Below, piece by piece: positions 23 through 63,715 of a stretch of DNA of 64,000 nucleotides. Position 1 is the first letter of the stretch. Each line of letters starts with the position of its first letter. A program made the position numbers and the translations under genes. Location: the NCBI GenBank assembly GCA_018302985.1, contig JAGVZA010000015.1, positions 1,471-65,470 on the forward strand, written 5' to 3'. The stretch comes from Candidatus Woesearchaeota archaeon (GTDB lineage: Archaea; Nanobdellota; Nanobdellia; SCGC-AAA011-G17; UBA489). The notes below the pieces were generated by a model. It searched no databases. It was not told the origin of the DNA and worked only from the letters and a program-made list of their open reading frames with translations.

Positions 23-535
23 ATGAGTTCTAAAGGGTTTATAAAGGTACTTGCCAAGCTAAATCTTTTTAACCTCTTCATCTCTTTTTCCACTATGCTT
101 GTAGATACCCATTCAACTACTCTTTTAACCTGGGAAGAATTTGATAGATCTGTACCTAATAGAGATTATAACTCTTTAGTTCAAAAGGCTCAAACTAACC
201 TCTGGACTCCAGAACCACCGATAATTATATCACCCATGCCAGCTTCTTATGCAGGTAAATATACTCATTTTCTTTATAATGGACATACACGCCTAAGTAT
301 TGCCAGAGAGTTTCAGGTCCCGTTACATGCTTTAGTAGTACATTTCGATCAAGAGATTCCCGCGATGGAAGAACTCATAGGACCTTCTTCATTGGAATCT
401 GTTTTAAGAGGCATTGTTTGTAGGAAGATGCATCCTCACCCAACCCTCAATCTTTTCTGGTATGCAAAACAGGATCTTTCTTTCTTGATGCAAGAATTCC
501 AAACATGGGAAGAACAACAATTGCAATGTGCTTGA
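23..535 (+). CDS. hypothetical protein (weak ParB/sulfiredoxin-like motif)
   Basis: 170-aa ORF. The only hint is YNGHTRLSIAREF, which loosely resembles the DGHHR core of ParB/Srx-fold proteins. Confidence 0.4.
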   Translation: MSSKGFIKVLAKLNLFNLFISFSTMLVDTHSTTLLTWEEFDRSVPNRDYNSLVQKAQTNLWTPEPPIIISPMPASYAGKYTHFLYNGHTRLSIAREFQVPLHALVVHFDQEIPAMEELIGPSSLESVLRGIVCRKMHPHPTLNLFWYAKQDLSFLMQEFQTWEEQQLQCA

Positions 536-13546: not shown

Positions 13547-13548
13547 GG

Positions 13549-15564: not shown

Positions 15565-15630
15565 TTTTTCAACCCCCGCTTCCGGAAATGGTGAGGAAGT
15601 ATAAAAAGGTTCCTAGGGTGTTTGAGAAGT

Positions 15631-40478: not shown

Positions 40479-41066
40479 TTACTCTTCATATTTATATTTT
40501 AGAATAAATGGATATGTTCTCAGATAGAACCAAAGCAAGAACGCTAATGAGGCCCCTAAAAAAGCCAATAATCCGTCAAGAAAAACCAGATTGAGAACTT
40601 GTATTATTTTCAACTTTGTGAGATAAAGAGATAACATCAGACCAGTCCATAAAGGCATGGTTGCGAATGCTGTACTTGCCGCAAGTATAACTCTTAGAGG
40701 ATCCATGTTTATTGCTTTAGTAAACAACCAATGTATTATTTCAAAACAAAGTCCTACAAGACCCATAATAATATATCTTTTTACTCCTAATCCCGCAAGA
40801 TCTGGCAGAGAAGGGATTAATGTTACAGCTATAAGACTCACAATACCTACAGCTCCAAATTTGTTTATGAAAAAAGCAGTGAAGGTCGCAAAAACCACCA
40901 TTAAAATAAATAGAAGAGCATATCCTGTAAGACCTGGAATCGCTGATCCTAAGGCATGAGCAGTAGCCCATAGAATGACTATGAACAGAAATGCGAAGAG
41001 ATCCTTAATACTATATTTAAAATAATTTTCCTCAGATACTTCATCAGAGTTATTAGACTCCTTCAT
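40479..41066 (-). CDS. polytopic membrane protein (about 6 TM)
   Basis: 195-aa hydrophobic ORF. 14-nt overlap with the upstream 524-aa gene. Confidence 0.55.
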   Translation of the reverse strand: MKESNNSDEVSEENYFKYSIKDLFAFLFIVILWATAHALGSAIPGLTGYALLFILMVVFATFTAFFINKFGAVGIVSLIAVTLIPSLPDLAGLGVKRYIIMGLVGLCFEIIHWLFTKAINMDPLRVILAASTAFATMPLWTGLMLSLYLTKLKIIQVLNLVFLDGLLAFLGASLAFLLWFYLRTYPFILKYKYEE

Positions 41067-42627
41067 TCTTATCCCTCTTTATGTTGAACTTAGATATGAC
41101 TTGCTTATAAACTTTCTCTATTTTTGTAGGAACTTCATAACGCACTTTAAGATTTTCCAAGACTGGCAGAGTTCTCTTTATTGCTGAAATTTTTTCCATA
41201 TATTTATCTAATTTAATGTGGTATGTAGGATCATCAATAGATCCTGTTGAAAAGCGATCATCTTGTGATTTTTTAATAAGATCTATTAACACTTTATTTT
41301 CTAACTCAAGGTCTTCTATTTTTCTTGTTACTCTTAGGAGCCTCATTCTTCTGAAAAGAACAGGCCCGAAAACGATGCTACAAATAATTAGGAAAGATAA
41401 AGAGAACTTATGTTTTCTTATAAATCCAGTACTCTCTTTTGCTAGGACTCCGGTCACTGCCAAACGAGCCAAACCAAGCTCCAAGGATGAATCTGCCTTG
41501 CTCAACAGCGTTTCTGCCTCATCGTAACGCTCTTCTGAGAATGACTTCAAAGCATCATTATATGCATTTGTTGATTCTGAAGTGTTAACTCCACGCTCAT
41601 TATAAAACCCTAGTTTTTTGTAGACATTCTCAAATGTAGCATTGATTCTATAAATCTGTATAGTAGTATAATTTATCTGAGAGATAATCCCTTTTATGGA
41701 GACAAAATCAATCCCAACATATTCATCTCCTGGCTTCCTTTCTACATTTCTTTTAATATTTTTTATAAACTTGATATAGTCTGTGTCATTCTGAATCTCA
41801 TCCCATTCTAGAATGTCTTCAAAATAAGCAACATATATCTCCTCTTCAGCTGAGACATAGACGTCAGTCAAGAAGTCTGTTGAAAAATTATTTGATCTTA
41901 TCTCCTCCAAGATCTTATACCCTTCATATACTTTATCTACACTCTTAATGTCCATTTTTACCTTTATCTTTATTGCTGTCTCCCTCGCAAGATCATATTT
42001 CCAAAACTCATAAAATGCGGCCATCTGTTCTGATAGTTTTTTGATGTCTTCTGTCACGACTTCTGTGTCGTTGAATTGTTTGTTTACTTCTTCAAAAATA
42101 AACTCATAAAGAGATCTAATCTCATAAAGCTCGTCTTTTCTTTTTTCAAAATCACTCGAGATATTCTTTAATAAGTTATAGTCTTTGCCAAACAATGATT
42201 TCTTGCCATTTGTCGGAAGAATATATTCTATCATTCTCATTCTTCTCTCATCTGTTGACTTTCTGTACTTTATACTGATATCGAGCATAATATCAGAAAA
42301 ACTCTTTTGGAGGATCATAGATCTCATTTCAGCAACATAATTCTCTATAAGCACATCTGTAAAATTCTCTCGCTTAAGATACTTCAATTCATTTTCTGCT
42401 GTGAGCAGCAATTCGATCATTTCCAACTGCTTTTCATTAGGAACACTTGCTACATCAAGAAGACCCTCTTCCTTAGATTCTTGCATGATTTGTTCTTGAT
42501 CTGCTAGCACTATAGAACTTGCAACCAAGATAATGAAAAAGACAAAGACAAAACTTTTTTTTAATAGAACTACTCTTTTAGATGTTGTCTTCTTTTCTTC
42601 CGAAAAACTCTTCATTTTCCCCTCCAC
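41053..42627 (-). CDS. bitopic membrane protein; helical ectodomain, TM, cytoplasmic tail paralogous to the giant protein tail
   Basis: N-terminal TM/signal FVFVFFIILVASSIVLA, a long helical region, then TM FSLSFLIICSIVFGPVLF. The tail motif is QDDRFSTGSIDDPTYHIKLDKYMEKISAIK. 16-nt overlap with the giant gene. Confidence 0.55.
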   Translation of the reverse strand: MEGKMKSFSEEKKTTSKRVVLLKKSFVFVFFIILVASSIVLADQEQIMQESKEEGLLDVASVPNEKQLEMIELLLTAENELKYLKRENFTDVLIENYVAEMRSMILQKSFSDIMLDISIKYRKSTDERRMRMIEYILPTNGKKSLFGKDYNLLKNISSDFEKRKDELYEIRSLYEFIFEEVNKQFNDTEVVTEDIKKLSEQMAAFYEFWKYDLARETAIKIKVKMDIKSVDKVYEGYKILEEIRSNNFSTDFLTDVYVSAEEEIYVAYFEDILEWDEIQNDTDYIKFIKNIKRNVERKPGDEYVGIDFVSIKGIISQINYTTIQIYRINATFENVYKKLGFYNERGVNTSESTNAYNDALKSFSEERYDEAETLLSKADSSLELGLARLAVTGVLAKESTGFIRKHKFSLSFLIICSIVFGPVLFRRMRLLRVTRKIEDLELENKVLIDLIKKSQDDRFSTGSIDDPTYHIKLDKYMEKISAIKRTLPVLENLKVRYEVPTKIEKVYKQVISKFNIKRDKNEGV

Positions 42628-45600
42628 TTAGGAGGCAGATTTTTCCTAACTGCATCAACTTCTTTTGCTGTCTCTGGGAAGTAGGCTTTCAACTCTGCTT
42701 CAGATAATCTTCTTACATCTGCTCTCTTTTTGATATTCTCCTTGTTCTGTTGTTGGTTCTTTATAGACTGATCTGGTTTCTCAGGCAATCGCTTAGGTGG
42801 CAAACACATACTTTCAGGTTCTTGTTTTTTGAAGACGTTCCTCTCTCTTTGAGGCTGATCTTTTGTCACAAAAATACTTCTTTCTTGTTTCAGCGATTCT
42901 TGCTTCTTCTTTCTAAAGATTATCGACTTTATCCTCTCAACTAGGTTTCTTATAAAAAATCCCTTCTTTCTCTGATCAGCCCATGTTTGCTGAGGCATAC
43001 TAGAGGATATTTCTTTTCTTTCAGACTTAACTCTCCTTATAAGATTAATTCCTTTTTGTATACCTATCAGACTTACTCTCTTTATAAAAACAGTAAAATC
43101 AATTGTCTTCTGCACTATCTTTCCTTTAGTCGTTGTTTTTCTAGTTATATTCTTCTTCTGTATTTTGGCTTCAAGAATTGCACTCTCTTCTTCTATTTCT
43201 ACAAGGCTTCTTCTAATAATTCTCATTTCATTTTCAAAATCTGTCTTGGTAATATCCTTACGAACATAATACCTCTCCTGAAGCGCCTTGAGATTATTAG
43301 AAACGATTTCTTTCTCTTTCTGCACCTTCGCCAACTCTTTAGTAATGCTAACTACATATCCTACTCTTTGTGTTCTTAATTTTCCTTTCAATTGTTGAAT
43401 AGCACTCAATCTTCTTTCATAGTGCTCCTTATCCCTATGGAACTCATAATCACTAATATCTTTGGTTACATAATATCTATCTTGATTCTCCTTCAAGAGC
43501 TTGTGGATTGTCTCCTCCTCCTTTTCATAATTCTTTTTCCTGAATTCAATAATCAAAGTAATAATCTCCACATAGCCCATATAAGAACCAGCACATAAGA
43601 GAGCAAGGAAGAATAGTATCGCCCACCAATAATTTATAACAAATTTAATAATGTTAATTCTGCTCTTGGTCTCCAAAATATAAGTAAGCTGGGCTTCATT
43701 CAATGATTGCAAAGCAACATCGAAATCTTCTCTTGCAAAAGCTTCTTTGGCTACATTAGCAAGCTGTCTTGTTCCTGCTATAACTATTCCTTTCTTATCA
43801 GCCTCTTTTATTTTAAGATCTAAGTCTTTTAGAAGTTCTAAAGACTTGAAAGATTTCTCTTTCTTATCAAGAATTTGCTTTGCTAATTGCCCTGCCAGCT
43901 TAAATTTTCCATCTCGATAAGCTTTTTTAGCTTGTTCTAAGATTACAATACTTCTACTTACGGGTATTTGCTGCTGATCCATCTCGACAATTGCTTTTTC
44001 TGCCTTGTCTATAGCTTCCTTAATCTCTTCTTCAGATTCTTCTTTAATCAATAAAGTTATAATTCTTTTATCTGTAAGTGTTCCTTTTTGTCCATTCGCT
44101 GTAACTTCTGCTGTAATCAATGCTTCGAGCGTGTAAGTACTTTCTTCAAGATATCTTGGAGCGTCTACTTGAATTCTGAATGCTTTTGTTTCTTTATATC
44201 CTATATTAGTTAATGTTCTTGACAATACTTTAATATATTTTGTCAAAAATCCAGTAATCTGTATATTAGCCTCATTAATTACAGATCCTGGTTGAATATT
44301 GTTAACCTCTAATATGAATTCATTACTTCTTCCTCTTTCCAAGGTTATAGTCTTAGAACTTTCAGATCTAAAGAGGGATTGAGAACTAATAATTCCTCCA
44401 CCACCGCCTCCACCACCGCCTCCACCTCCACCTCCACCTCCACCGCTGCTACTAGCTCCACTACTCGCTACTTCATTAGAACAATCTGCATCTACAGCTC
44501 TAAAACATCCAGAACCGCAAACACCATCTGCACCATTACAGTCTACGCTTAAATTATAAGACAAAGTATCATTATTTGATTCAGACAAACCAGTAATATT
44601 CAAGAAAGTATCTGTTCCATTTTGATCGTAAGTAGTAGTTGTACCTACAATCACTGTGATATTATTATATAACAAGTCATTAACGCCTAAAGTATCATTT
44701 GATACTGATAGATTTCCAGAACTAATTGAAAATCCTGTAGGCAAGACCCATGCAACAGACACATTATCTACAGTATCATTTCCGACATTTTTCGCATATA
44801 CTTTGTAAGTTTCTACAGATGATTGTTGCACGCCAAATGATCCTTCTTCAAAAGTTAAGTCTATGTAAGGTCCTGGAGAAATTGAAGTCAAAGCCGCAGT
44901 AACATTCTCAGATTCAGGAGAGGTTGTTTGATTTTCATTTGTCGCATTAACCATAATATTAATAGTGTCAGATTGAGATGTTGAAGCTCCTGTCGCATTT
45001 ATCTCGACAGTAAGCGTCTCTCCTGGCTGCAATTCCACAGGCATAGTCTCATTAAAAAAGATCAAAGCATAATCCGCAATAATTGATGTGAAATTGATAG
45101 GAACATCTCCAGTCACATTGAATATGAATATTCCTAAAGAAGTATTCTCACTGAATTGAGCAAAACTTTCCCCCAAATCAGTAGGCGTTACGTTCCATGT
45201 ATAATCATAATCGATAACTACATTTTGTATAGTCCCTACATTCTCATTTCCCGCAGTATCATTAGCGAAAACAGTATAGTTAATAGTCCCATTTCTGTCT
45301 GGAGTAAATGAAACATTCTCGAATAAAGAAGCCCCGCTATTAAACACTAGAGTTGTATTTGTAAATTCAGTTTCATTGTCATATTTCCAAGAAAAGATCG
45401 CTGTATCTACAAGAAGCGTAGCATCAGAAACATTCGCAGTTATATTAATAATTAATCCAGGATCTAGATATTCTACATCGCTCGGACTTAAAGTAATCTC
45501 ATTGATTACTGGTCCTGCAGTATCGACATTAAAATTTGTTGTTATTGACTGATTTTCATTGGCCGCATCGTCATTACAAAGAATATAACCCGTGTGCCCC

Positions 45601-48600
45601 CCATTAGCGACACTAGTTGCTGCAAGTGATGTTGATGTTCCGTTGTCTACAGAGCTATTCGTAGTGGTGATAGTATTATCTATAAAAAATGTACAGTTCA
45701 GCAGTGTGTCTAGAGCATCAGTAACAATATATGTGAAAGTGACTGTACTGGAAGTTATATTATCGAGATTATTAGGATTACTAATGACTATATTAGGTTC
45801 TACAGTATCTACAGTGAAGATAATATACTCACTTTGTAAGTTTCCTGTTGTGTCATTGGCATAGACTGTAATATTATTTTCACCCTCTATACTTGTGAGA
45901 GATACATTTGTACAACCATTTACAGTCGTGTTTACAGCAGCGCTATTCAAATCATAAAAACACTGATCTACTTCTAAGTCATCTGAAACGCTGATATTTA
46001 ATTCTACTGTTGAAATATTAAAAAAACTTCCATTGGTTGGGTTGACAACACTAAGAAATGGGACAACGACATCTCCGATTTCTAAAAATGCCTGAAAAAA
46101 ACCAGAAATTCCGGAAAAATCAAAGTAAACTATTCCTCCTCCTGCTGATGCCCTGTCTACACTGATAGAAACATTTCCTGAATAGTTGAGACCTTGCTGA
46201 ACTACTAACCCTTGACTAAATGTATTGTCATTATTAGGCGTAGTATCATATCCGAATACAGATGCTGATGAACCTGAGGAGAGGACTCGAGTTATAGCAT
46301 CTACAGAAGCAAAATAAATTCGTGAAACATTATCAAACCACACTATCGCGAAATCTGAATTTGTGACACTTTCTACTTGAGTGACGCGAAGAGTTGTATT
46401 ACTTAAGTTAGCTGAATAGACATTGATAAGGTCTGCGTCGCTACTTGTACCTATCTGTGTACTAGTCAGAGTACCGTCATTTCCTGTGGTGCTGCTAGAA
46501 ACATCCATAGAACCTGCAGTGCTGGTGAACTCTACAGTAACTCCAGATACATAATCTCCAATGACTAGATGTGCATCGACGCTTGCAGTTGTAAGAGTTG
46601 TAGCGATTGCAATTTTATCGCCTTTTGCTTCAGTATGTGGTACTATTATCTGAACACCTTCAGTAGTGTTTGTCTGTAATAATGCACCTATAGCAGTTAT
46701 GACAACACCACTCTCTGGCGTAGTATCGCGAAGAGTTGTAGTATATATTGAAGAATTAGTCAGTGTATTTGTCGTACGATTGACTGTTACCATGCGAACA
46801 CGCTGCTGTGAACGGTCATACCAAGCATAAGAAATATCAGTTGCACCAACATCATCTTCTTCAGTGATAATTTTTCTTATTCCTAGAGCGCCACTTTCTA
46901 CAGTAATAGTATTACCGAGAGCACCGCCAGTCTGGATGCTTGTTACTACACCATCAGGACCAGTGTAACCAGTTGTAACGCTCATGGATCCAGCAGACGC
47001 AGAAAAGTTGACTTCTATACCTTCGAGACCAGTACCATCAGCATCTGTGACTACTGCAGTCACATTAGGATTTACATCACCGTCAGCATATGCAAAAAAA
47101 CGATTTAAAGAATTTTCTGTAAATATACTCAGACCGTCATTTCCTGGTGTTGTAGTAGTGATACCTATCTGAATAAAATCATCACTAGTTACTGTTCCCC
47201 GAGGAATATAGATGCTTGCGGCAGAAGTATTTGTCTGAGGTTCTACTGAACTGACACTGACACAGGTTTGCAATGCAACTGCACAGTTCTTCGGAGTCCT
47301 ATCGAAGACTGTTGCACTTACTGTATTTGCCGTTACCAATACATTGTAAGTATCATCTCGTGTTTTTGAAACTGTTGCACTATAAAGTACAGATTCGACT
47401 GGATCATACCACTGGAATGCCCGCGCATTCGCATCAACAACTAGTGAGAGATTAGTGTAGATGTAGACAGACTGATTGATATCTGTAGCATTCACTACAA
47501 TAACATCGCCTACAGCGCCTCCGCTTTGTGTGCTTGTCACAGTACCATTATATTCAGTAACTCCAGAATCAATACTCATGGATCCAGCAGACGCAGAAAA
47601 AGAAATAGCAGCATTTTGCACAGCCGTACCATTCTCATCAGTCACCACAGCCGTCACTATAGGATTAGCATCGCTTGTAGCGAATGCAAATAAATACTGC
47701 TTTGATGATGGGTCTGTTCGCAGTCGAATAAAATTGTCTGGAGAGAAAGTTGTTGTACCTACATCTACGCGGACACGATCATTATCGCGGTAACTTCTTG
47801 GCGTCAGAGTAATATTACTTGGAGTACCTTGTGTCGCATTTTGTTCATATGCTGGTTCTCCTGAAATTGTTGCTGAAAATAAGGGGTATGTTGCAAAGCT
47901 ATCCAGAGTATATGTTGTGGTGGTAGCTCCAGCGAGCACTTTTGTTGTTGTATTTACTGTTACAGTATAGGCTACCATCAGATTACTGTCAAACCATGTA
48001 TAAACTGTATCTGGAGCAGCGACATTTATTGATTCATTAGTTATAACAGCAATATCTGTCAAGTTATCTGAACTAACAGTAATAGTATCCCCCAATGTAC
48101 CTCCAGATTGTGTTGAGGAAACTGTACCATCTAGACTAGTTACTCCTGACGTCGGAGACATTGTACCTACACTTGAGCTGAAACTAACTGTTATATCTGG
48201 AATACCATAACCATCACTATCAGTCACCACAGCAGTCACTATAGGATTAGTACCATTTGTTGCAAAAGCAAAAAAATTCGTGGCATTATTTTGAGCAGCT
48301 ACAGTATTGATATCCGTTAGCGCTGATTGATTAATAACTATAGCAGCATCAAGGACTGGTGTAGTCGTACCGTAGAATATGTTCACAATATCTCCAGAAG
48401 AAAAATTAACTGGTGTAATATTCGCTGAAAAATTATTAGACTGCTGAAAAATGTCAGTAAAGAAACCAGTTGTATTATTAGGAGTATTATCTGATAAAAT
48501 AAATGCTGCTGCTGATGTAGTCACTATTGTCTTTGTCAATCGAGTGATTGGTATTGTCAATAAATTATTTGTACTGACATCATACCATGCTACTGCAGTG

Positions 48601-48752
48601 TCTGCTGCTGCAAGTGCTGCAAATGCGCTTGAGAGTACTGTAATGTTACTTAAATTTGCTGCATAGACATGAATAAGGTCTCCTATACTTCCATCTATCT
48701 GTGTACTAGTCAGAGTACCGTCATTTCCTGTGGTGCTGCTAGAAACATCCAT
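42612..48752 (-). CDS. giant surface adhesin, C-terminal 2046-aa portion (Big_1/invasin-like repeats, Ig-like N-glycosylation-rich domains, Gly17 linker, TM, 311-aa cytoplasmic coiled-coil tail)
   Basis: Repeats of NP.VTAVVTD..G.....I.FS.S.GSMS...G.T...G.V.S.Q.GG.(L/V)G. Many NxS/T sequons. CNGADGVCGSGC. TM VINYWWAILFFLALLCAGSYMGY. The ORF begins mid-domain with no signal peptide. Confidence 0.8.
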   Translation of the reverse strand: MDVSSSTTGNDGTLTSTQIDGSIGDLIHVYAANLSNITVLSSAFAALAAADTAVAWYDVSTNNLLTIPITRLTKTIVTTSAAAFILSDNTPNNTTGFFTDIFQQSNNFSANITPVNFSSGDIVNIFYGTTTPVLDAAIVINQSALTDINTVAAQNNATNFFAFATNGTNPIVTAVVTDSDGYGIPDITVSFSSSVGTMSPTSGVTSLDGTVSSTQSGGTLGDTITVSSDNLTDIAVITNESINVAAPDTVYTWFDSNLMVAYTVTVNTTTKVLAGATTTTYTLDSFATYPLFSATISGEPAYEQNATQGTPSNITLTPRSYRDNDRVRVDVGTTTFSPDNFIRLRTDPSSKQYLFAFATSDANPIVTAVVTDENGTAVQNAAISFSASAGSMSIDSGVTEYNGTVTSTQSGGAVGDVIVVNATDINQSVYIYTNLSLVVDANARAFQWYDPVESVLYSATVSKTRDDTYNVLVTANTVSATVFDRTPKNCAVALQTCVSVSSVEPQTNTSAASIYIPRGTVTSDDFIQIGITTTTPGNDGLSIFTENSLNRFFAYADGDVNPNVTAVVTDADGTGLEGIEVNFSASAGSMSVTTGYTGPDGVVTSIQTGGALGNTITVESGALGIRKIITEEDDVGATDISYAWYDRSQQRVRMVTVNRTTNTLTNSSIYTTTLRDTTPESGVVITAIGALLQTNTTEGVQIIVPHTEAKGDKIAIATTLTTASVDAHLVIGDYVSGVTVEFTSTAGSMDVSSSTTGNDGTLTSTQIGTSSDADLINVYSANLSNTTLRVTQVESVTNSDFAIVWFDNVSRIYFASVDAITRVLSSGSSASVFGYDTTPNNDNTFSQGLVVQQGLNYSGNVSISVDRASAGGGIVYFDFSGISGFFQAFLEIGDVVVPFLSVVNPTNGSFFNISTVELNISVSDDLEVDQCFYDLNSAAVNTTVNGCTNVSLTSIEGENNITVYANDTTGNLQSEYIIFTVDTVEPNIVISNPNNLDNITSSTVTFTYIVTDALDTLLNCTFFIDNTITTTNSSVDNGTSTSLAATSVANGGHTGYILCNDDAANENQSITTNFNVDTAGPVINEITLSPSDVEYLDPGLIINITANVSDATLLVDTAIFSWKYDNETEFTNTTLVFNSGASLFENVSFTPDRNGTINYTVFANDTAGNENVGTIQNVVIDYDYTWNVTPTDLGESFAQFSENTSLGIFIFNVTGDVPINFTSIIADYALIFFNETMPVELQPGETLTVEINATGASTSQSDTINIMVNATNENQTTSPESENVTAALTSISPGPYIDLTFEEGSFGVQQSSVETYKVYAKNVGNDTVDNVSVAWVLPTGFSISSGNLSVSNDTLGVNDLLYNNITVIVGTTTTYDQNGTDTFLNITGLSESNNDTLSYNLSVDCNGADGVCGSGCFRAVDADCSNEVASSGASSSGGGGGGGGGGGGGGGGGIISSQSLFRSESSKTITLERGRSNEFILEVNNIQPGSVINEANIQITGFLTKYIKVLSRTLTNIGYKETKAFRIQVDAPRYLEESTYTLEALITAEVTANGQKGTLTDKRIITLLIKEESEEEIKEAIDKAEKAIVEMDQQQIPVSRSIVILEQAKKAYRDGKFKLAGQLAKQILDKKEKSFKSLELLKDLDLKIKEADKKGIVIAGTRQLANVAKEAFAREDFDVALQSLNEAQLTYILETKSRINIIKFVINYWWAILFFLALLCAGSYMGYVEIITLIIEFRKKNYEKEEETIHKLLKENQDRYYVTKDISDYEFHRDKEHYERRLSAIQQLKGKLRTQRVGYVVSITKELAKVQKEKEIVSNNLKALQERYYVRKDITKTDFENEMRIIRRSLVEIEEESAILEAKIQKKNITRKTTTKGKIVQKTIDFTVFIKRVSLIGIQKGINLIRRVKSERKEISSSMPQQTWADQRKKGFFIRNLVERIKSIIFRKKKQESLKQERSIFVTKDQPQRERNVFKKQEPESMCLPPKRLPEKPDQSIKNQQQNKENIKKRADVRRLSEAELKAYFPETAKEVDAVRKNLPPKWRGK
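44394..44444 (-). repeat. (GGN)17 coding tract = Gly17 linker
   Basis: Plus strand is TCC/ACC/GCC x17, in frame within the giant ORF (SSSG17IISS). Confidence 0.9.
46451..46549. repeat. 99-bp perfect repeat, copy 1 (in-frame, internal to the 2046-aa ORF)
   Basis: Identical to 48695-48793 by manual alignment. Encodes (V)SGVTVEFTSTAGSMDVSSSTTGNDGTLTSTQI. Confidence 0.9.
46874..47072. repeat. 199-bp repeat (6 mismatches) with 49128-49326
   Basis: Manual alignment. Both copies encode NPNVTAVVTDADGTGLEGIEVNFSASAGSMSV.TGYTGPDGVVTSIQTGGALGNTITVESGALGIR. Confidence 0.85.
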
Positions 48753-48793
48753 AGAACCTGCAGTGCTGGTGAACTCTACAGTAACTCCAGATA
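48695..48793. repeat. 99-bp perfect repeat, copy 2 (spans the junction of the two giant ORFs)
   Basis: Identical to 46451-46549. Identity ends at 48793, exactly where the reading frame changes. Confidence 0.9.
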
Positions 48794-51297
48794 AGGTTTG
48801 ATGGCGCTGGCAGATTAATAATTAGATCTATGGAAGGTGTTGTTGTTGTTGTTCCAATAGATAATCTATCACCTTGTCCATAAGTACCTGGTGAAACAAT
48901 AATATCTGCAGGTGTTGCGTTGTTCTGTGTGGTTGCAGAACCTGTAGTGAGGAGGACTCCGTTATTTAGAGTTCTATCTAGAGCTGTTGCAGTAATTGTG
49001 CCTGCATTTGCTAGAACATTTGTTGTTCTATTCACTGTGGCAACATTCACAGTTCTCCTTATTTTATCAAACCAGCCATAGGATCTATCTATTGCATTGA
49101 CATCATAAGAGTCATCAACAAATACTGTTCTTATTCCTAGAGCTCCGCTTTCTACAGTGATAGTATTGCCGAGAGCACCGCCAGTCTGGATGCTTGTTAC
49201 TACACCATCTGGACCAGTGTAACCAGTTGCAACGCTCATGGATCCAGCAGACGCAGAAAAGTTGACTTCTATACCTTCGAGACCAGTACCATCAGCATCT
49301 GTGACTACTGCAGTCACATTAGGATTAGGTCCTCCACTTGCGAAAGCAAAAAATTCATTAGAGCCACTTCGCGCAAGAATAAGTTCTCCATCAGTACCTG
49401 ATGTTGTTGCCACTGCTATTTCTATCCAGTCATCCGATAGATATGCATTCTGCGCTGCATAGGAGGTTGCTGGAGATATATTTGTTTGTTCCAGTAAACC
49501 ACCTATACCAAGACTCGTGATTGATGCAGTAGCCCCATTATAAGGAGTCCTATCATAAGCTGTAAATGTTGTAACTGTTGATTCTGCAAGAACATTATAG
49601 GTATCACTTGGATTTTTTATGACTGTAGCGCTATAAATCACAGATTCAACAGGATCAAACCACACAATAGCACGAGCATTTGCATTGACTGCCTGAGAAT
49701 TATTTACATAAATCAGTACAGTCTGATTGAGGTCTGGCGCAGAGATTACAATAGAATCTCCAATACTTCCGCCACTTTGCACACTTGTTGTTGTACCATT
49801 ATAACTAGTCAAACTATCAGCAATGCTCATGGATCCAGCAGATGAACTAAACGTGAGATTTACTCCTTGTACAGCTGTGCCATTATTATCAGTTACTACT
49901 CCTGTTACTGTAGGATTAGGACCAGCAGTTGCAAAAGCAAAAAGGTGATTTGTTTCTCTATTTCTCATAAAGACATATCCATCAAGATCGCCCGTTGGAG
50001 TTCCAGCAGTACGAACACGATCATTCTCGCCATATGTTCTTCTGATTAAAGGAAAGTATGCGGGCTCTGTATCAGACTGAGCATATGTTGAGTCTGTAGA
50101 AAAAGCTACTAAATTATTTGGATAACCATTGGTGTCTTCAGCAGTAAATGTAATAGTGTTAGCAGCATTTGCAATTATATTACTGACAGTATGAACAGAG
50201 TAAACTGTTTGATTATATTCATTGAACCATGTAACTAATTTACTGTTTGCTGCTGTTGCAGTAGTTGCATCTGCTGTGACTATGGTGACTGAGCTCAGAT
50301 TATCTGCACTAATAGTAATACCATTTCCTAAACCACCTCCGGATTGTGTGCTTGTAGCGATACCTCCTTCGTTTGTGGCACTAGTACTTTGGGACATAGA
50401 TCCAGAATTTACACTGAAACTAACTGTTTTTCCAGGAACACCGTGGCCAAAGGCATCGACAACTATTGCTGTGACAGTGGGATTAGTACCTCCATTTGCA
50501 TAGGCATAAAGAGTTGTCGGTCTTTGCTCTAGCAACTCGCCGAAAGCCGGATCATTTTGTGTAATACTGAGAGAGTATTCTTCTCCAGGATGAATATCCA
50601 TAATTTTCTTCCATTCACCAAAACACCTTCTAGAATCAAAGTCCCATTCCTTACATTTGTATACTACAGATCCTTCAGCAAGAATAGTAAGTGTTGCTTC
50701 TTCGAAATCTGCAGCTGTTGGATCAATAGCGTATACTCTTTCCCAGTTTCCTATTCTTGGTTGATCTGGAATATCTGCCGGAGGATTATCTATTCTAAAT
50801 ATTGCATCTTTTTGTTCTACTTTGAGTCCTTTTATTGCTATATTTTTTATTGATTGTTTTGAATCATCTAAACTTATATTCGCATCATAAGTATCTTTCT
50901 TAACCTTTGTTCTAGTTCCTGACTCCAACTCTTGCACAACTTTTTCTTGATCATTATATAACTCAACATCTCCAAAGATTGTCTTTCCAGTTTTATCTTC
51001 GATCTCAATTTTAAAATTCGCTATTTTTGAACTCTCAGCAGCAGAATCTCCCGACCTAAAAATAATCAAAAATAAAAGAAGTATGATGAAACTAGTGAAG
51101 AATGTACTAAAGAACACCCTCCCTTTTTTATCTTTTTTAGTAAGTATAATATCTTTTCTCTCTTGGATAATAAGAGAATCTTTTGTATGTTCTTTAAACA
51201 GTACTTCAGTGCCGTTGTCCCAATTCTTAAATTCTGCAATTTTTTTCGGTAGGGTCAGAATAAGCTGACCATTAGATAACTTTTGTATTTTAACCAA
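48739..51297 (-). CDS. giant surface adhesin, N-terminal 852-aa portion (AbrB-like N-domain, TM anchor, Big_1 repeats)
   Basis: TTG start. MVKIQKLSNGQLILTLPKKIAEFKNWDNGTEVLF (SpoVT/AbrB-like), TM FFSTFFTSFIILLLFLIIF, and three Big_1 super-repeats. The last 17 aa are out-of-frame nonsense (IWSYCRVHQHCRFYGCF). Confidence 0.8.
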   Translation of the reverse strand: MVKIQKLSNGQLILTLPKKIAEFKNWDNGTEVLFKEHTKDSLIIQERKDIILTKKDKKGRVFFSTFFTSFIILLLFLIIFRSGDSAAESSKIANFKIEIEDKTGKTIFGDVELYNDQEKVVQELESGTRTKVKKDTYDANISLDDSKQSIKNIAIKGLKVEQKDAIFRIDNPPADIPDQPRIGNWERVYAIDPTAADFEEATLTILAEGSVVYKCKEWDFDSRRCFGEWKKIMDIHPGEEYSLSITQNDPAFGELLEQRPTTLYAYANGGTNPTVTAIVVDAFGHGVPGKTVSFSVNSGSMSQSTSATNEGGIATSTQSGGGLGNGITISADNLSSVTIVTADATTATAANSKLVTWFNEYNQTVYSVHTVSNIIANAANTITFTAEDTNGYPNNLVAFSTDSTYAQSDTEPAYFPLIRRTYGENDRVRTAGTPTGDLDGYVFMRNRETNHLFAFATAGPNPTVTGVVTDNNGTAVQGVNLTFSSSAGSMSIADSLTSYNGTTTSVQSGGSIGDSIVISAPDLNQTVLIYVNNSQAVNANARAIVWFDPVESVIYSATVIKNPSDTYNVLAESTVTTFTAYDRTPYNGATASITSLGIGGLLEQTNISPATSYAAQNAYLSDDWIEIAVATTSGTDGELILARSGSNEFFAFASGGPNPNVTAVVTDADGTGLEGIEVNFSASAGSMSVATGYTGPDGVVTSIQTGGALGNTITVESGALGIRTVFVDDSYDVNAIDRSYGWFDKIRRTVNVATVNRTTNVLANAGTITATALDRTLNNGVLLTTGSATTQNNATPADIIVSPGTYGQGDRLSIGTTTTTPSIDLIINLPAPSNLIWSYCRVHQHCRFYGCF
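49128..49326. repeat. 199-bp repeat partner of 46874-47072
   Basis: See partner. The last 96 nt are identical. Confidence 0.85.
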
Positions 51298-51456: not shown

Positions 51457-52485
51457 TTAGATTTCCTTAACAAAAACTTCTTGGTCTGGGAAAATTTCAA
51501 CACCGACTCCTTTTACTATGCGCATTGCAACTACTTTTCTTTGATGTGCTACGCCCCTCATTTTTAGAACTTCAATTGCACGTTCTCTGATATTTTGTCT
51601 TTGAATAGAATAAAGAATAATCACACCATCTGCAAGAAATTCTTCAGTACCTGTAGGACTAAATTGTTTTGGAATCTGTGCTGTTTCAGTGATCAGGAAT
51701 GTTGTTGCTCCAATTTCCTCGAAATAACGAAATAATTTTTCAATATAAACTCTGTAAGTATCTTTTCTTCCAATAAATGCCGCAGAAATGGCAGTTAAGG
51801 AATCTACGAAAATAAACTCAGGAGTATAATCTTTTGGTAAAATAACAGGTTTGATATCAATTAAAAGTTCTCCTTTTTCTTTAGCTAACAACGCATCAAC
51901 ACTTCTCATAATATCAAAAGGGTTTAATCTTAAAAAAGCTAATTTCTCTTCTCTAATATATCTTTTCGCATCCCATCCAAAATCATTCATGTGTGAAATT
52001 AATCTCAGTTCTGATTCTTCGAGAGTTAGATACAAACATTTCTTTCCTTGCATACATGCATTCGCCATTATCTGTAAATTAAGAATTGTTTTTCCACTTC
52101 CAGTTCCACCACAGACAATAACTGCTGCACCTTTAGGAATTCCCTCTACAAGCAAACTATCCAAACCAGGGATTAGGGTCTTGTTAAATATATTTCCTGT
52201 TTCAGGCATTTTTCTATTTTTTATTATGGGATTAACATCTATTTGTGGATTAGTGAGTATTTCTTTTTTATCCTTTGGATCTTCACTAGTATCTGAATTT
52301 AATGCTGCACGCATAACTTTGATAATCTTTTGAAAGTTGAACTGTTTATTTTCTTTATTGATTTTTGTTGTTTTTTCATTGATTATGATAGGTTTAGGCT
52401 TATTTTCGACTTTTCTTTTAGAAAGATTTACATGTTTATGCTTAGAATTATCCTTTTTTAAGCCTTTTTTTTTCGTCGACATCAT
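51457..52485 (-). CDS. KaiC-like RecA-superfamily ATPase (intact motifs) with Lys-rich N-terminal extension
   Basis: Walker A CGGTGSGKT, catalytic LTLEESE, Walker B FIFVDSL, and C-terminal EVLKMRGVAHQRK. There is a disordered N-terminus of about 100 aa. Confidence 0.8.
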   Translation of the reverse strand: MMSTKKKGLKKDNSKHKHVNLSKRKVENKPKPIIINEKTTKINKENKQFNFQKIIKVMRAALNSDTSEDPKDKKEILTNPQIDVNPIIKNRKMPETGNIFNKTLIPGLDSLLVEGIPKGAAVIVCGGTGSGKTILNLQIMANACMQGKKCLYLTLEESELRLISHMNDFGWDAKRYIREEKLAFLRLNPFDIMRSVDALLAKEKGELLIDIKPVILPKDYTPEFIFVDSLTAISAAFIGRKDTYRVYIEKLFRYFEEIGATTFLITETAQIPKQFSPTGTEEFLADGVIILYSIQRQNIRERAIEVLKMRGVAHQRKVVAMRIVKGVGVEIFPDQEVFVKEI

Positions 52486-52651
52486 AAAACTACGAATATA
52501 CTAGTATAAAAAATTATCCTTAATGCAGGGTGTGGGACAGAAAAGACCTGACAGAGTAGACACAGCCAACATGTTGACACATGTGTGGCATAATCTCTAT
52601 TGGTTAGGCTGAGATAAGTTTATTCTGTCCCACACCCTAGAGCACCGAAAA

Positions 52652-52661
52652 GTATATAAAG
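52652..52661 (+). promoter_or_regulatory. TATA box inside the element driving the 54-aa ORF (leaderless)
   Basis: GTATATAAAG is centred about 28 nt upstream of ATG 52684. Confidence 0.45.
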
Positions 52662-52683
52662 CTATCTATAGATAACTATACTT

Positions 52684-52848
52684 ATGCCGAGAAAAATCGA
52701 ACTCGATCATGGTAAGCTTCAACTTACTGAAACAAAAGTAGAGGGATTCCTCGAAAGAACAGTCACCCCGATAGGCACATCCGCTAAAGCAGACGTGCCA
52801 AAAAGATACATCGGAAGAAGAGCATATGTGATAATAATCAAATATTAG
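52684..52848 (+). CDS. 54-aa AbrB-like small protein resembling archaeal 'putative transposon-encoded protein' (DUF2080)
   Basis: MPRKIELDHGKLQLTETKVEGFLERTVTPIGTSAKADVPKRYIGRRAYVIIIKY. Below the 60-aa ORF-track cutoff. Visibly higher GC than its surroundings. Confidence 0.5.
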   Translation: MPRKIELDHGKLQLTETKVEGFLERTVTPIGTSAKADVPKRYIGRRAYVIIIKY

Positions 52849-52910
52849 TTATTTCTGTCCCACACCCCTTAATGCAAACTTAAATAAACAAGAGAAATAG
52901 AGGTTATTAT

Positions 52911-53438
52911 ATGGTTCAGGAACTAGAAAAGATGGGGAAAGAAATTATAAATGTCTTAATGATTGTAGATGCTTCGCAATTACATCAAGTTTTAGCTGAT
53001 ACTATTGCTCATTTTTCCAGAAATGGAATGCCCGGTTTATTTTTTTCAACCACTAAACCAACAAGATTTTTTCAGGAAGAACTCATTAAGAAAAAAGTTG
53101 ATGTTGAAAAGATTATTTTTTTGGAAAGTATGGTTGATGAATCGAACATTTATAAAAATGTTGTTTTTGTTCAGACCTTGGAAGATCTTACAGGAATTAG
53201 TATAGTTTTAGAAGCTTTTATACAAGAACCCTCTCAAGAAAAATATGTATTAATAGATTCTTTAGATCTTTTAAAGATGTATAATAATCAAGAAATTGTT
53301 TTCAATTTTGTTGAACAGATCACTCAACTTTGTACGCTCAATAAAACTAATTGTATTATGATGACTAGTAAAAAAGACGAAGATGGTTTTGTTACTAAGA
53401 TTAAACCTTTTTTTAAAAAAGTTTTATTTAAAGTATAA
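52911..53438 (+). CDS. degenerate KaiC/RecA-like protein lacking Walker A
   Basis: VLMIVDAS..., GLFFSTTKP, YVLIDSLDLL (Walker-B-like) and NCIMMTSKK. It looks paralogous to 39820-40443. Confidence 0.45.
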   Translation: MVQELEKMGKEIINVLMIVDASQLHQVLADTIAHFSRNGMPGLFFSTTKPTRFFQEELIKKKVDVEKIIFLESMVDESNIYKNVVFVQTLEDLTGISIVLEAFIQEPSQEKYVLIDSLDLLKMYNNQEIVFNFVEQITQLCTLNKTNCIMMTSKKDEDGFVTKIKPFFKKVLFKV

Positions 53439-53439
53439 C

Positions 53440-54099
53440 ATGATCAACTTAGGAATTCCTGCATTGGATAAGGCATTTAAAGGAGGTTTAGATAATGGAA
53501 AGATTATTTTAATTAAATCTAAACCTAGAGCTGGAAAAATAGTTTTTGGCTACAAATTTCTAGAACAAGGACTAAAACAAGAAGAAAATTGTTTTTATTT
53601 TTTTCACAAAGCTAATACACAAGAGGCGATAGAAGAAACAGAAAATTACGGTCTTTCTACTAAAAAGCTCAAATTTATTAATAGTAATATGATTTATGGA
53701 AGAACTACTTCTCCAAATGTCGTTATTTGTGATCTTAATAGCCCTTCAGCCATAGATGTTCTTGATGGGTTGTTTCTAGATAAAGGGAGTGTCCGTGGAG
53801 TAATTACAGTTATTAGTGTGCTTTTTAGCAAAGGATTATTTTCCATTGCTTATTACTTGTTGAATCATCTCAGAAGATTAGTAGATCAAAACCCTCATTG
53901 GACTTTTCTGCTTACCATAGAACAAGGAGCGATTTCAGAAGAAGAGATGCAAGAAGCTGAAAAATTGGTTGATGTTGGTATAGAGCTCGTCGAAAAAAAA
54001 CCTGGAGAAGGAGATTTACTAATTTATAAGAGCTATAAACCTGTTACGAAAAAATCATTTAATTATAAAGTAAAGACTAATGAATTTATTGTTACTTGA
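53440..54099 (+). CDS. KaiC/RecA-like protein with degenerate P-loop
   Basis: KaiC-type N-terminus GIPALDKAFKGGLDNGKIILIKSKPRAGKIVF. The P-loop is SKPRAGKI instead of GxxxxGK[ST]. Start at ATG 53440, 1 nt after the upstream stop. Confidence 0.55.
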   Translation: MINLGIPALDKAFKGGLDNGKIILIKSKPRAGKIVFGYKFLEQGLKQEENCFYFFHKANTQEAIEETENYGLSTKKLKFINSNMIYGRTTSPNVVICDLNSPSAIDVLDGLFLDKGSVRGVITVISVLFSKGLFSIAYYLLNHLRRLVDQNPHWTFLLTIEQGAISEEEMQEAEKLVDVGIELVEKKPGEGDLLIYKSYKPVTKKSFNYKVKTNEFIVT

Positions 54100-55378
54100 T
54101 TCTTTCAATTTTTTTCAAGCCAAACATATATTTTTGCAAGACTATTGGAATCTTGATGGAACCATCTTTTTGTTGATAGTTCTCTAAAATTGCTACCATG
54201 GCTCTTGATGTGGCAACCATTGTATTATTAAGAATATGTACATTTTGTTTTTCATTCTTCTTTGTAGTGTACTTAATATTAAGTGCACGTGCTTGATAGT
54301 CTGTACAACTGCCTGCAGAAGTTACTTCTCGATAAGCTTTTTGTCTTGGGAACCAAGCCTCTATATCCCACTGCTTTGCAAACTTGGCACCTATATCACC
54401 AGAACAAATTTCTAAGACACGATAGGGAATCTTCAGACTTTGGAAGAATTTTTCAGTTACTTTTTGCATATATTCTAATTGCTTGTAGGAATCTTCTGGT
54501 CTAGAGAAAACAACTTGCTCTACTTTGTTAAACTGATGCATACGGAAGATACCTTTCATATCTACACCGTGACCACCAATCTCTTTTCTGAAACAAGGTG
54601 TAACAGCACAGAATCTTAAAGGAAGCTCTTCTTCCTTCATTATCTTGTCGCGTTGCATAGTCACTAGAGCGTGTTCTGCAGTACCAATAAGATACAAATC
54701 TTCTTTTTCAACTTTGTAAATCACTTCTTCGAAATCCTTAAGGCCGTTTAAAGCCCCTAATAAGGCTTCATGATGTAAAACCATAGGAGGTATAACTGGA
54801 ATAAATTTGTTCTTAACTGCAAATTCAATACCATACCTTTGTAAGGCTAAATCAAGCATAGCCAAAGGACCTAGAAGATAATTGAATCCTTGTCCACTGT
54901 TTTTTCTTGCAGTGTCGAAATCTGCTAGACTCAATTTTTCTAACAACTCAGCATGATTCACTAACTCAAATTTAGGCTTGGTAACTTTTCCCCAGCGTTT
55001 AATTACTTTATTTTCAGTTTCATCTTTTCCTACAGGAACTGACTTGTGAAGAATATTAGGGATTCCTCTTAACTTCATCTCTATAGCTTTTTGCAATTCT
55101 TCTTGTCTAACTTCCATTTTTTTAATAAAATCTGGAATTTCACGAACTTCTTTTACTTTTGCTTGAATATCTTTACCTTCTTTTTGCAATTTATTGATTT
55201 CTTGAGAAATAATATTGCGTTTATGACGTAATTCTTCGACTTCTTGCTTAATATCCAAAGACTCTTTATACTCTTGGATGACTTGATCAACCCAAGGGAT
55301 TCTTTCAAGCTTATTGCGCTTCTTAAGGTCATCTTTGACTACTTGCGGATTATCACGAATAAATTTTATGTCTAACAT
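54092..55378 (-). CDS. serS: seryl-tRNA synthetase
   Basis: N-terminal coiled-coil arm MLDIKFIRDNP.... Class II motifs FRKEIGGHGVDMKGIFRMHQFNKVEQ and GSCTDYQARAL. Confidence 0.95.
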   Translation of the reverse strand: MLDIKFIRDNPQVVKDDLKKRNKLERIPWVDQVIQEYKESLDIKQEVEELRHKRNIISQEINKLQKEGKDIQAKVKEVREIPDFIKKMEVRQEELQKAIEMKLRGIPNILHKSVPVGKDETENKVIKRWGKVTKPKFELVNHAELLEKLSLADFDTARKNSGQGFNYLLGPLAMLDLALQRYGIEFAVKNKFIPVIPPMVLHHEALLGALNGLKDFEEVIYKVEKEDLYLIGTAEHALVTMQRDKIMKEEELPLRFCAVTPCFRKEIGGHGVDMKGIFRMHQFNKVEQVVFSRPEDSYKQLEYMQKVTEKFFQSLKIPYRVLEICSGDIGAKFAKQWDIEAWFPRQKAYREVTSAGSCTDYQARALNIKYTTKKNEKQNVHILNNTMVATSRAMVAILENYQQKDGSIKIPIVLQKYMFGLKKIERIK

Positions 55379-55561
55379 AGTCCCTTGGAGATAATGAATT
55401 TATATAAAGCTTGTGTCGTCGAAAAGTATTAAGCAATAGTCATGAACTTTGATGTGTTTGTATATCTATGTTAGGATATATATGCTCAAATGCAAAAGTT
55501 TAAATAGCTCATCTGCTGCATTTTCATATCTTAAAATAAAATCAACCGTGGGGGGTTATGT

Positions 55562-55837
55562 ATGAAGAAGAAAGATAAGGATATTTTTGAAGTTTTCTTT
55601 CGAAGAAAGCCTGCCATGATGCTTGTTGCTTTACGTACTGGCACTAAAAATCGCTATGGTTCAGTCCTTGCCAAAGAAGTTGATTGCACTTACTCTCACG
55701 CTGTCAAAATTCTCCAACAGATGCAAGACGCTAATTTAGTGGGCTTTGAAAAACAAGGTCGCATTAAAACTATCAAGCTGACTGATAATGGTCAAAGAAT
55801 AGCAGAACATATTGAAAAGATCCGCGATCTTCTTTAA
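55562..55837 (+). CDS. small winged-helix transcriptional regulator
   Basis: YGSVLAKEVDCTYSHAVKILQQMQDANLVGFEKQGRIKTIKLTDNG. GGGGGG SD-like run before the ATG. Confidence 0.65.
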   Translation: MKKKDKDIFEVFFRRKPAMMLVALRTGTKNRYGSVLAKEVDCTYSHAVKILQQMQDANLVGFEKQGRIKTIKLTDNGQRIAEHIEKIRDLL

Positions 55838-55856
55838 TTTTTTTATTTTTTTATCA
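55838..55856 (+). terminator. oligo-T termination tracts
   Basis: TTTTTTTATTTTTTTAT lies directly after the stop codon. Confidence 0.4.
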
Positions 55857-55966
55857 TCGTTTATATAAGAGCTAGATTAATTCTTTATAAGTTCTAGAGA
55901 TTCTAAATATCTTTTAGAGAGAGTTTTTCCCAAACTTATTTAAAGCAGTTTTAACTTGCCTGACCT

Positions 55967-60195: not shown

Positions 60196-60218
60196 ATAAG
60201 AACCGTCGTTTTGCTCTT

Positions 60219-60794
60219 ATGAGCCTTATTAAAGACTATATATCTGACCGTCGGCATAAGAAATTAGAGGAGATTAATAGGGCTTTAGAACAACTTAAAC
60301 ATGAAAATGTTGCAACTGACGCGCTCAAACCGAAAAGCACTTTAACTACCCCTGTATCTCATCCACCTATGCGCACAGGCAAAGATTTACTATTTATAGG
60401 TATTCTTCTTGTTTGTGTGATTGTATTAATTGTTACAAGCTTTTACTATAGAAGCCAATATGCTACTCTCAATGACAATTACCAAGAGAAAGTAAATGCT
60501 CTTAGCAAGTTAGAAGCAGATCTTCAAAAGAAAATCGGTGATCTTGAAACTACCCAGGAAGAACGGGATAGACTTGAAGCTTCTGAAGAAACACTCCAGG
60601 AAGAACGGGATAGACTTGAATCAGATGTTGAAGACTTAGAATTAGAAATAGAGACATTAGAGGATGATATCACAGTTAAACGCGCTGAAGTTGATAATCT
60701 TACACGAACTATAAATCAACAACGCAATGAAATAGATCGCTGGAAAGATTGTATTGAAGACGAACTAGATCAAAATTTAAGTGTGTGCGATTAA
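60219..60794 (+). CDS. bitopic coiled-coil membrane protein
   Basis: One TM (LLFIGILLVCVIVLIVTSF), then heptad-rich repeats (QEERDRLEASEE / QEERDRLESDVE). Confidence 0.5.
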   Translation: MSLIKDYISDRRHKKLEEINRALEQLKHENVATDALKPKSTLTTPVSHPPMRTGKDLLFIGILLVCVIVLIVTSFYYRSQYATLNDNYQEKVNALSKLEADLQKKIGDLETTQEERDRLEASEETLQEERDRLESDVEDLELEIETLEDDITVKRAEVDNLTRTINQQRNEIDRWKDCIEDELDQNLSVCD

Positions 60795-60802
60795 CATGAG
60801 CT

Positions 60803-63713: not shown

Positions 63714-63715
63714 AG

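What the first reader, a model, noticed from the sequence alone, without database searches (positions are those of the whole stretch)
48695..48793. Giant adhesin is split by a frame change exactly at the edge of a 99-bp perfect repeat
The 852-aa ORF ends in 17 nonsense residues. The 2046-aa ORF starts mid-domain (MDVSSSTTGNDG...), with no signal peptide or TM. Upstream of its ATG the same frame reads L-SGVTVEFTSTAGS, which is the canonical start of the repeat unit seen in frame at 46451-46549 (GDYV-SGVTVEFTSTAGSMDVSSS). The 852-aa frame up to APSNL parallels the preceding unit (TTTTTPSIDLIINLPAPSNL versus TTLTTASVDAHLVIGDYV). Skipping one nucleotide near 48792 restores a single ORF of about 2,894 aa. 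The 99-bp identity with copy 1 stops at 48793, the same position. This points to one of three causes: an assembler jump between repeats, an out-of-register gene-conversion or recombination tract, or a real (possibly phase-variable) frameshift.
Basis: seen in the sequence. Interest (0 to 1): 0.8.

Follow-up and report, generated by a model that had tools for sequence, protein, structure and literature searches.

The report
Assembly gap splits giant archaeal adhesin
The apparent frameshift that splits this giant surface-protein gene of a groundwater Woesearchaeota archaeon is almost certainly an assembly error: other assemblies of the same DNA carry 77 extra bases at that spot and read as one intact 2,948-residue gene.

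Summary
On the minus strand, an 852-aa ORF with 17 nonsense residues at its end abuts a 2046-aa ORF that starts mid-domain. The frame break sits at the edge of an exact 99-bp repeat (46451-46549 = 48695-48793).

The frameshift is not a real feature. A JGI Rifle-aquifer contig is 100% identical to the window over the whole locus, except for 77 extra nt at 48793/48794 and 84 extra nt at 46549/46550. With those segments the gene is one 2948-aa ORF with eight regular Big_1 Ig-like modules. At least two contigs, and probably four, from different samples and assemblers show this 2948-aa product. No indexed contig has an 852-aa or 2046-aa product.

In the intact sequence the exact repeat is 153 bp. 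The window keeps exactly its last 99 nt in both copies. That is k-1 for IDBA-UD run at maxk 100, the published setting for Rifle DPANN genomes. MEGAHIT k141 contigs start with exactly the last 141 nt of the same repeat.

The window therefore contains two scaffold joins that lost sequence. A third window-only deletion, 14 nt at 23277/23278, breaks another gene. Interest is low.

The parts
42612..51297 (-). The single giant surface-protein gene as it should be read. It is 2948 aa once the two lost segments are restored. Layout: N-terminal membrane anchor (hydrophobic residues 61-80), eight ~195-aa modules each with a Big_1 Ig-like domain, further beta-rich domains, a Gly17 linker, a second hydrophobic segment near residue 2601, and a coiled-coil, basic tail.
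   Evidence: Inserting L001 13693-13769 and 16013-16096 into the window gene reproduces the L001 gene base for base. Pfam Big_1 gives 8 stretches, E = 1.4e-30. Module starts are at residues 272, 461, 658, 846, 1043, 1237, 1435 and 1622.
48739..51297 (-). 852-aa ORF. This is the 5' fragment of the gene (true residues 1-835) plus 17 out-of-frame residues. NCBI annotates it as MBS3144834.1, 'Ig-like domain-containing protein [Candidatus Woesearchaeota archaeon]'.
42612..48752 (-). 2046-aa ORF. This is the 3' remainder of the gene. It starts at an internal Met of module 4 and carries the in-frame 84-nt loss in module 8.
48793..48794 (-). Join J1. Here 77 nt are missing relative to the intact contigs (L001 13693-13769, CTACCTTGATG...GGAATGGAG, encoding YLDVYASAGPNPNVTAVVTDSGGNG). 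This loss breaks the frame.
   Evidence: blastn blocks; sequence
46549..46551 (-). Join J2. Here 84 nt are missing (L001 16013-16096, encoding ATNYLYAFASPGPNPNVTAVVTDSGGNG). The loss is in frame, so it is invisible without a reference. Placement is ambiguous by 1 nt.
   Evidence: The independent MEGAHIT contig L006 carries the 42 nt immediately 5' (gene sense) of this join exactly as in L001, not as in the window.
48695..48793 (-). 99-bp exact repeat, copy in module 4. It is exactly the last 99 nt of the true 153-bp exact repeat R (L001 13716-13868).
46451..46549 (-). 99-bp exact repeat, copy in module 8. It is exactly the last 99 nt of R copy 2 (L001 16044-16196).

Best explanation
The split is an assembly or scaffolding artefact in the deposited Woesearchaeota MAG contig.

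Shown: the real gene is one 2948-aa ORF with eight tandem Big_1-containing modules. Modules 4 and 8 share a 153-bp exact repeat R, which is longer than the 150-bp reads.

Inferred: in a de Bruijn graph at k = 100, R collapses into one node, and each contig that leaves R begins with the last k-1 = 99 nt of R. The scaffolder linked the upstream contigs, which end 23 and 31 nt before R, directly to these downstream contigs without a gap. That dropped 77 nt at 48793/48794 and 84 nt at 46549/46550. The first loss is not a multiple of three, so it creates the apparent frameshift, the 17 nonsense residues and the 'mid-domain' start. The second loss is in frame and silently truncates module 8.

No biological frameshift, phase variation or gene split needs to be invoked.
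For: 1. JGI contig Ga0209542_10000618 (L001, L005, L015) matches the window with no mismatches from 11969 to 62485. The only differences are three window-specific deletions of 77, 84 and 14 nt. The remaining flanks are 100% identical to other Rifle contigs (L020 for 1-15859; L023-L025 for 52535-64000).
2. With the extra segments the gene is one 2948-aa ORF. Both restored segments encode the conserved module start (..Y.FA..GPNPNVTAVVTD..G) that the other six modules have. Pfam Big_1 stretches rise from 3+3 to 8.
3. In the census of indexed contigs, two contigs are listed with a 2948-aa product: JGI 3300025323 and the ANAN16 IDBA-UD scaffold_141 of SAMN03842437. Each has one further similar place not shown. 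No contig has an 852-aa or 2046-aa product.
4. R is 153 bp in the intact contig, and the window retains exactly R[55..153], which is 99 nt, in both copies. Rifle DPANN genomes were assembled with IDBA-UD -maxk 100 from 150-bp reads (PMC8204110), so k-1 = 99.
5. Other assemblers break at the same repeat with their own k signature. The MEGAHIT k141 contig L006 starts with exactly the last 141 nt of R copy 2. A second k141 contig (L034) has the same 1325-aa partial product, with 7 similar places not shown. Two older JGI contigs start 98 and 101 nt before the end of R copy 2, and one ends 101 nt into R copy 1.
6. The exact 96-bp repeat in modules 3 and 7 is shorter than 99 bp and was assembled undamaged.
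7. The joins show 0 nt (J1) and 1 nt (J2) of microhomology and no simple-sequence tract.
Against: - No raw reads could be examined, so the artefact is inferred from comparison of assemblies.
- The link between this NCBI record (MBS3144834.1) and the IDBA-UD maxk-100 Rifle pipeline is circumstantial. It rests on 100% identity to Rifle contigs and a 2021-type accession.
- The upstream contigs stop 23 and 31 nt before R rather than 99 nt into it, as a textbook unitig would. The exact software step that trimmed or joined them is therefore not explained.
- The 14-nt deletion at 23277/23278 is not next to any repeat and has no mechanistic explanation.
Confidence: 0.93

Rival explanations
1. The deletions are real. 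A sub-population of this archaeon carries a degraded or split allele of the surface-protein gene, with 77-nt and 84-nt deletions, and the MAG sampled that allele.
For: Strain variation exists in these samples: L004, L016, L018 and L026 differ from the window by a few SNPs, and there is a 22-nt indel polymorphism in tRNA-Val. Repeat-rich surface genes are common deletion hot spots (general knowledge).
Against: - Two independent deletions would have to end at the same repeat coordinate (R[55]) in both copies, exactly 99 nt from the end of identity, which equals the assembler's k-1.
- Their left ends lie in different unique sequence, so conversion cannot have copied one onto the other.
- There are zero SNPs against the intact contig over about 50 kb, yet three deletions.
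- No indexed contig has the 852-aa or 2046-aa product.
- The in-frame loss removes the first beta-strands of an Ig fold.
Confidence: 0.04
2. It is a programmed +1 ribosomal frameshift or a phase-variable (contingency) frameshift, so that full-length adhesin is made only sometimes.
For: Skipping one base between 48789 and 48799 gives a continuous 2894-aa ORF.
Against: - There is no homopolymer or simple-sequence tract and no recognisable slippery motif at ...CCATCAAACCTTATCTGGAG....
- The 'restored' protein would still lack 25 conserved residues of module 4.
- Identical-population assemblies have 77 nt there, not a 1-nt difference.
- The nearest homologues (36-37% identity, 2405 and 2407 aa) and more distant ones (1716-4283 aa) are long proteins, none of them short fragments like the 852-aa ORF.
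Confidence: 0.01
3. It is an out-of-register gene-conversion or recombination tract between modules 8 and 4 that pasted 99 bp one base out of frame.
For: The 99-bp identity ends exactly at the frame break. Modules 1-4 and 5-8 form a duplicated super-repeat: offset 2244-2254 in the window, 2328 in the intact contig.
Against: The intact contig shows that the true identity tract is 153 bp and in frame in both copies. The 99-bp edge exists only because the preceding 54 nt of the repeat are missing from the window. The donor copy shows the same truncation.
Confidence: 0.01

Closest known systems
Repeat-collapse and scaffold-join misassembly in short-read de Bruijn graph metagenome assemblies (IDBA-UD at k = 100)
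   Same: The breakpoints sit at an exact repeat longer than k. The retained repeat length equals k-1 in both copies. Other assemblers break at the same repeat with their own k (141). Assemblies that resolve the repeat give an intact ORF. A spurious frameshift and a split gene call follow in the deposited MAG.
   Different: The upstream contigs end 23 and 31 nt before the repeat instead of inside it, and no N gap was left. The exact software step is not identified.
Big_1 (PF02369) Ig-like repeat adhesins of the invasin/intimin type
   Same: The intact protein has eight Big_1 matches well above Pfam's gathering score, weak Invasin_D3 similarity, tandem modular architecture, a membrane anchor and giant size.
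   Different: The host is an archaeon (Woesearchaeota, DPANN). There is no beta-barrel outer-membrane anchor and no LysM or C-type-lectin tip. Each ~195-aa module contains a second, unassigned beta-rich half. The protein has two hydrophobic segments and a long coiled-coil tail. The adhesive function is inferred, not shown.
Phase-variable (contingency-locus) surface proteins switched by simple-sequence repeats
   Same: A large surface-protein gene is interrupted by a frame change.
   Different: There is no simple-sequence tract at the break, and the difference from the intact allele is 77 nt of unique plus repeat sequence. This does not work like a contingency locus.

Membership tests
De Bruijn-graph scaffold-join artefact | Independent assemblies of the same population lack the lesion and give an intact reading frame. 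| tested here: met
   L001/L005 are 100% identical apart from +77 and +84 nt, giving one 2948-aa ORF. Two contigs are listed with a 2948-aa product, each with one further similar place not shown. None has 852 or 2046 aa.
De Bruijn-graph scaffold-join artefact | The breakpoint lies at an exact repeat longer than k, and the retained overlap equals the assembler's k or k-1. | tested here: met
   R is 153 bp, and the window keeps the last 99 nt in both copies. Published IDBA-UD maxk is 100 for Rifle DPANN MAGs. MEGAHIT k141 contigs keep the last 141 nt.
De Bruijn-graph scaffold-join artefact | No sequencing reads support the junction. | not testable with these tools
Programmed ribosomal frameshift | A slippery or shift-prone motif at the frame change, conserved in orthologues. 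| tested here: not met
   No such motif is present at 48780-48800. Same-population contigs have 77 extra nt and no frame change. All seven homologues are long proteins of 1716-4283 aa.
Phase-variable contingency locus | A homopolymer or short tandem repeat tract at the frameshift site whose length varies between isolates. | tested here: not met
   The longest homopolymer run at the junction is AAA. The difference between assemblies is a 77-nt block.
Big_1 Ig-like repeat surface proteins (PF02369) | Sequence match to the Big_1 profile above the curated gathering score. | tested here: met
   The intact protein scores 105.7 bits against a cut-off of 34.9, with 8 stretches. The window fragments score 62.2 and 43.0 bits.
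Big_1 Ig-like repeat surface proteins (PF02369) | Demonstrated adhesive function or surface location. | not testable with these tools
   This is inferred only, from the N-terminal hydrophobic anchor, 86 N-x-S/T sequons and the Ig-like modules.

The most novel reading that the evidence does not exclude
The three short deletions (77, 84 and 14 nt) are real and mark a clonal sub-population in which the giant surface protein has been inactivated or split, for example after loss of a host-attachment requirement. The match of the breakpoints to k-1 = 99 would then be a coincidence.
Probability: 0.03. Interest if true: 0.3.

Novelty: not a real feature. Interest (0 to 1): 0.06.

Why it matters
As biology it does not matter. 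There is no frameshift, no phase variation and no two-part adhesin.

It matters for data quality:
- A public MAG record carries at least three short deletions in 64 kb.
- Two of them create false split or truncated genes: MBS3144834.1 plus its 2046-aa neighbour, and a 95-aa OB-fold gene.
- One deletion is in frame and therefore undetectable without a reference.

An exact repeat of length k-1 that ends at a frame break is a useful signature for flagging scaffold joins in repeat-rich surface-protein genes of MAGs. The underlying intact 2948-aa Big_1 protein is a typical, if large, DPANN surface protein.

Tried and rejected
- Exact-product look-ups of the 852-aa ORF, the 2046-aa ORF and P0001 found nothing on record. 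The neighbouring genes had to be used as anchors instead.
- Exact DNA scans of genome contigs and metagenome contigs with the 40-nt unique left flank of J1 found nothing. Those collections evidently do not hold these Rifle contigs, so the second scans were not spent.
- An exact cluster look-up of the 2948-aa and 2046-aa sequences found neither in the collection.
- The homology search with the 852-aa ORF returned only itself.
- I could not retrieve the DNA of the ANAN16 scaffold_141 gene, because similar places are collapsed at large flank. Only its 2948-aa product length is known.
- Programmed frameshift, phase variation and gene conversion were considered and rejected on the evidence above.
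- I did not pursue structure prediction. It would not bear on the question.

Full report
**Observation**

The feature lies on the minus strand.
- ORF 48739..51297 (852 aa) ends ...TTTTTPSIDLIINLPAPSNL followed by 17 residues (IWSYCRVHQHCRFYGCF) that are an out-of-frame reading of the next module.
- ORF 42612..48752 (2046 aa) begins MDVSSSTTGNDG. Its frame upstream reads ...TLSGVTVEFTSTAGS.
- An exact 99-bp direct repeat links 46451-46549 and 48695-48793. Identity stops abruptly at 48793/48794. It is the longest exact repeat in the window; the next is 96 bp.
- Removing any one base between 48789 and 48799 gives a 2894-aa ORF.

**What the same DNA looks like in other assemblies**

I used the neighbouring KaiC-like gene as an anchor. 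This retrieved a JGI Rifle-aquifer contig, 3300025323 Ga0209542_10000618 (85 kb), in which the gene downstream of KaiC is a single 2948-aa ORF. blastn of the window against that contig gives three 100%-identical blocks separated by two segments present only in the JGI contig:
- 77 nt at window 48793/48794.
- 84 nt at window 46549/46550, with 1 nt of placement ambiguity.

Inserting these two segments into the window gene reproduces the JGI gene base for base.

The 77-nt segment encodes YLDVYASAGPNPNVTAVVTDSGGNG. The 84-nt segment encodes ATNYLYAFASPGPNPNVTAVVTDSGGNG. Both are the conserved N-terminal strands (..[FY].[FY]A..G.NP.VTAVVTD..G) found in the six other modules. With them, module starts fall at a regular 187-197-aa spacing (residues 272, 461, 658, 846, 1043, 1237, 1435, 1622). 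Pfam finds eight Big_1 stretches instead of 3+3.

The 'canonical' copy-1 boundary GDYV|SGVTVEF is a second, in-frame deletion junction.

**Why this is an artefact rather than a real allele**

1. In the intact contig the exact repeat R is 153 bp (L001 13716-13868 and 16044-16196). The window retains exactly the last 99 nt of R in both copies.
2. Two independent biological deletions would not both end at the same repeat coordinate. Their left ends lie in different unique sequence, 23 and 31 nt upstream of R, so conversion cannot have copied one onto the other. Microhomology at the joins is 0 and 1 nt.
3. 99 equals k-1 for IDBA-UD at -maxk 100, which a paper states was used with 150-bp reads for the Rifle DPANN genomes (PMC8204110). 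The window's 852-aa protein is NCBI MBS3144834.1, 'Candidatus Woesearchaeota archaeon', on a 70,835-bp contig. In a k = 100 vertex-centred graph, a contig leaving a repeat starts with the last 99 nt of that repeat. This point rests on established knowledge of de Bruijn assemblers.
4. Other assemblers leave their own k signature at the same repeat:
   - The MEGAHIT k141 contig L006 starts with exactly the last 141 nt of R copy 2.
   - Contig L034 has the same 1325-aa partial product, with 7 similar places not shown.
   - Two older JGI contigs start 98 and 101 nt before the end of R copy 2.
   - One older JGI contig ends 101 nt into R copy 1.
5. In the census of indexed contigs, two are listed with the 2948-aa product: JGI 3300025323 and the ANAN16 IDBA-UD scaffold_141 of SAMN03842437. 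Each has one further similar place not shown. None carries an 852-aa or 2046-aa product.
6. L006 independently confirms that the 42 nt immediately 5' (gene sense) of the J2 breakpoint are R sequence, as in L001, and not the window's sequence.
7. Across the whole 64-kb window I found no mismatch to at least one other assembly. There were only three window-specific deletions (77, 84 and 14 nt). Real divergence would be expected to include substitutions.
8. The 96-bp exact repeat in modules 3 and 7 is shorter than k-1 and was assembled without damage.

**What remains unexplained**

The upstream contigs stop 23 and 31 nt before R instead of 99 nt into it, and no N gap was left. I cannot name the exact software step that caused this (end trimming, gap estimate of zero, or later curation). 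The 14-nt loss at 23277/23278 is not next to a repeat. I could not examine reads. The assignment of this NCBI record to the IDBA-UD Rifle pipeline is circumstantial.

**What is really there**

The locus holds one gene, 42612-51297 on the minus strand, for a 2948-aa surface protein of a Rifle-groundwater Woesearchaeota (DPANN) archaeon. Its layout:
- A short N-terminal cytoplasmic segment and a hydrophobic anchor (residues 61-80).
- Eight ~195-aa modules, each with a Big_1 Ig-like domain and an unassigned beta-rich half. They are arranged as a duplicated four-module super-repeat.
- Further Ig-like domains, including a weak Glucodextran_B-like match.
- A Gly17 linker.
- A second hydrophobic segment near residue 2601.
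- A coiled-coil, basic C-terminal tail.
- 86 N-x-S/T sequons.

The nearest homologues (36-37% identity) are single proteins of 2405 and 2407 aa. More distant ones range from 1716 to 4283 aa. None is a short fragment like the 852-aa ORF. A role in cell-surface adhesion, for instance to a host cell, is inferred from domain content only.

**Rivals**

| Reading | Confidence | Main reason against |
|---|---|---|
| Real deleted allele | about 0.04 | Needs the k-1 coincidence twice |
| Programmed or phase-variable frameshift | about 0.01 | No slippery or simple-sequence tract; would still lack 25 conserved residues |
| Out-of-register gene conversion | about 0.01 | The 99-bp edge exists only because 54 nt of the true 153-bp in-frame repeat are missing |

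**Verdict**

The biological interpretations are not supported, and the 'assembler' option is supported in modified form. This is not a real feature and interest is low. Its practical value is as a data-quality flag for this record, and as an illustration that an exact repeat of length k-1 ending at a frame break marks a scaffold join.

Noticed in passing
window 23277/23278: 14 nt (AAGTAGAACTAGAG) present in four other assemblies (L015, L016, L017, L018) are missing from the window. The loss breaks a 95-aa OB-fold/SSB-like ORF (MQISELKARQGKVELEAEITQKGEV...) that is intact elsewhere. There is no repeat nearby. This is probably another local assembly error in the same record.
   Followed up: partly
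window 1144-1218 (tRNA-Val GAC, minus strand); L019 around 6278-6340: A MEGAHIT contig (L019, with 11 similar places not shown) carries a 22-nt insertion (AGTCTTGATAAAAGGCGGATAA in tRNA sense) in the D-loop region of this tRNA-Val gene, after about position 16. The window and two JGI contigs (L020, L021) lack it. ARAGORN no longer calls a tRNA in the inserted version. It may be a non-canonical archaeal tRNA intron that is polymorphic in the population, or a strain difference.
   Followed up: partly
window 46977-47072 and 49231-49326: A second exact repeat of 96 bp lies in modules 3 and 7 (GPNPNVTAVVTDADGTGLEGIEVNFSASAGSMSV), inside a 226-nt, 92%-identical tract. Modules 1-4 and 5-8 form a duplicated four-module super-repeat with signs of recent homogenisation between copies.
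   Followed up: partly
window 41053-42627 (-), 51457-52485 (-), 52911-54099 (+): The giant gene is flanked upstream by a KaiC-like ATPase, with a second KaiC-like ORF and a DUF2080 gene nearby. Downstream, overlapping its stop codon, is a 520-aa protein with no Pfam match. These may form a conserved surface-structure operon. Not examined.
   Followed up: no
window 55967-63389 (+): This is a BatA/VWA, VWA, DUF7502, MoxR-like AAA and DUF58 gene cluster (Bat/MoxR-type operon) in a DPANN archaeon. It is annotated from the Pfam hits listed for the related loci.
   Followed up: no
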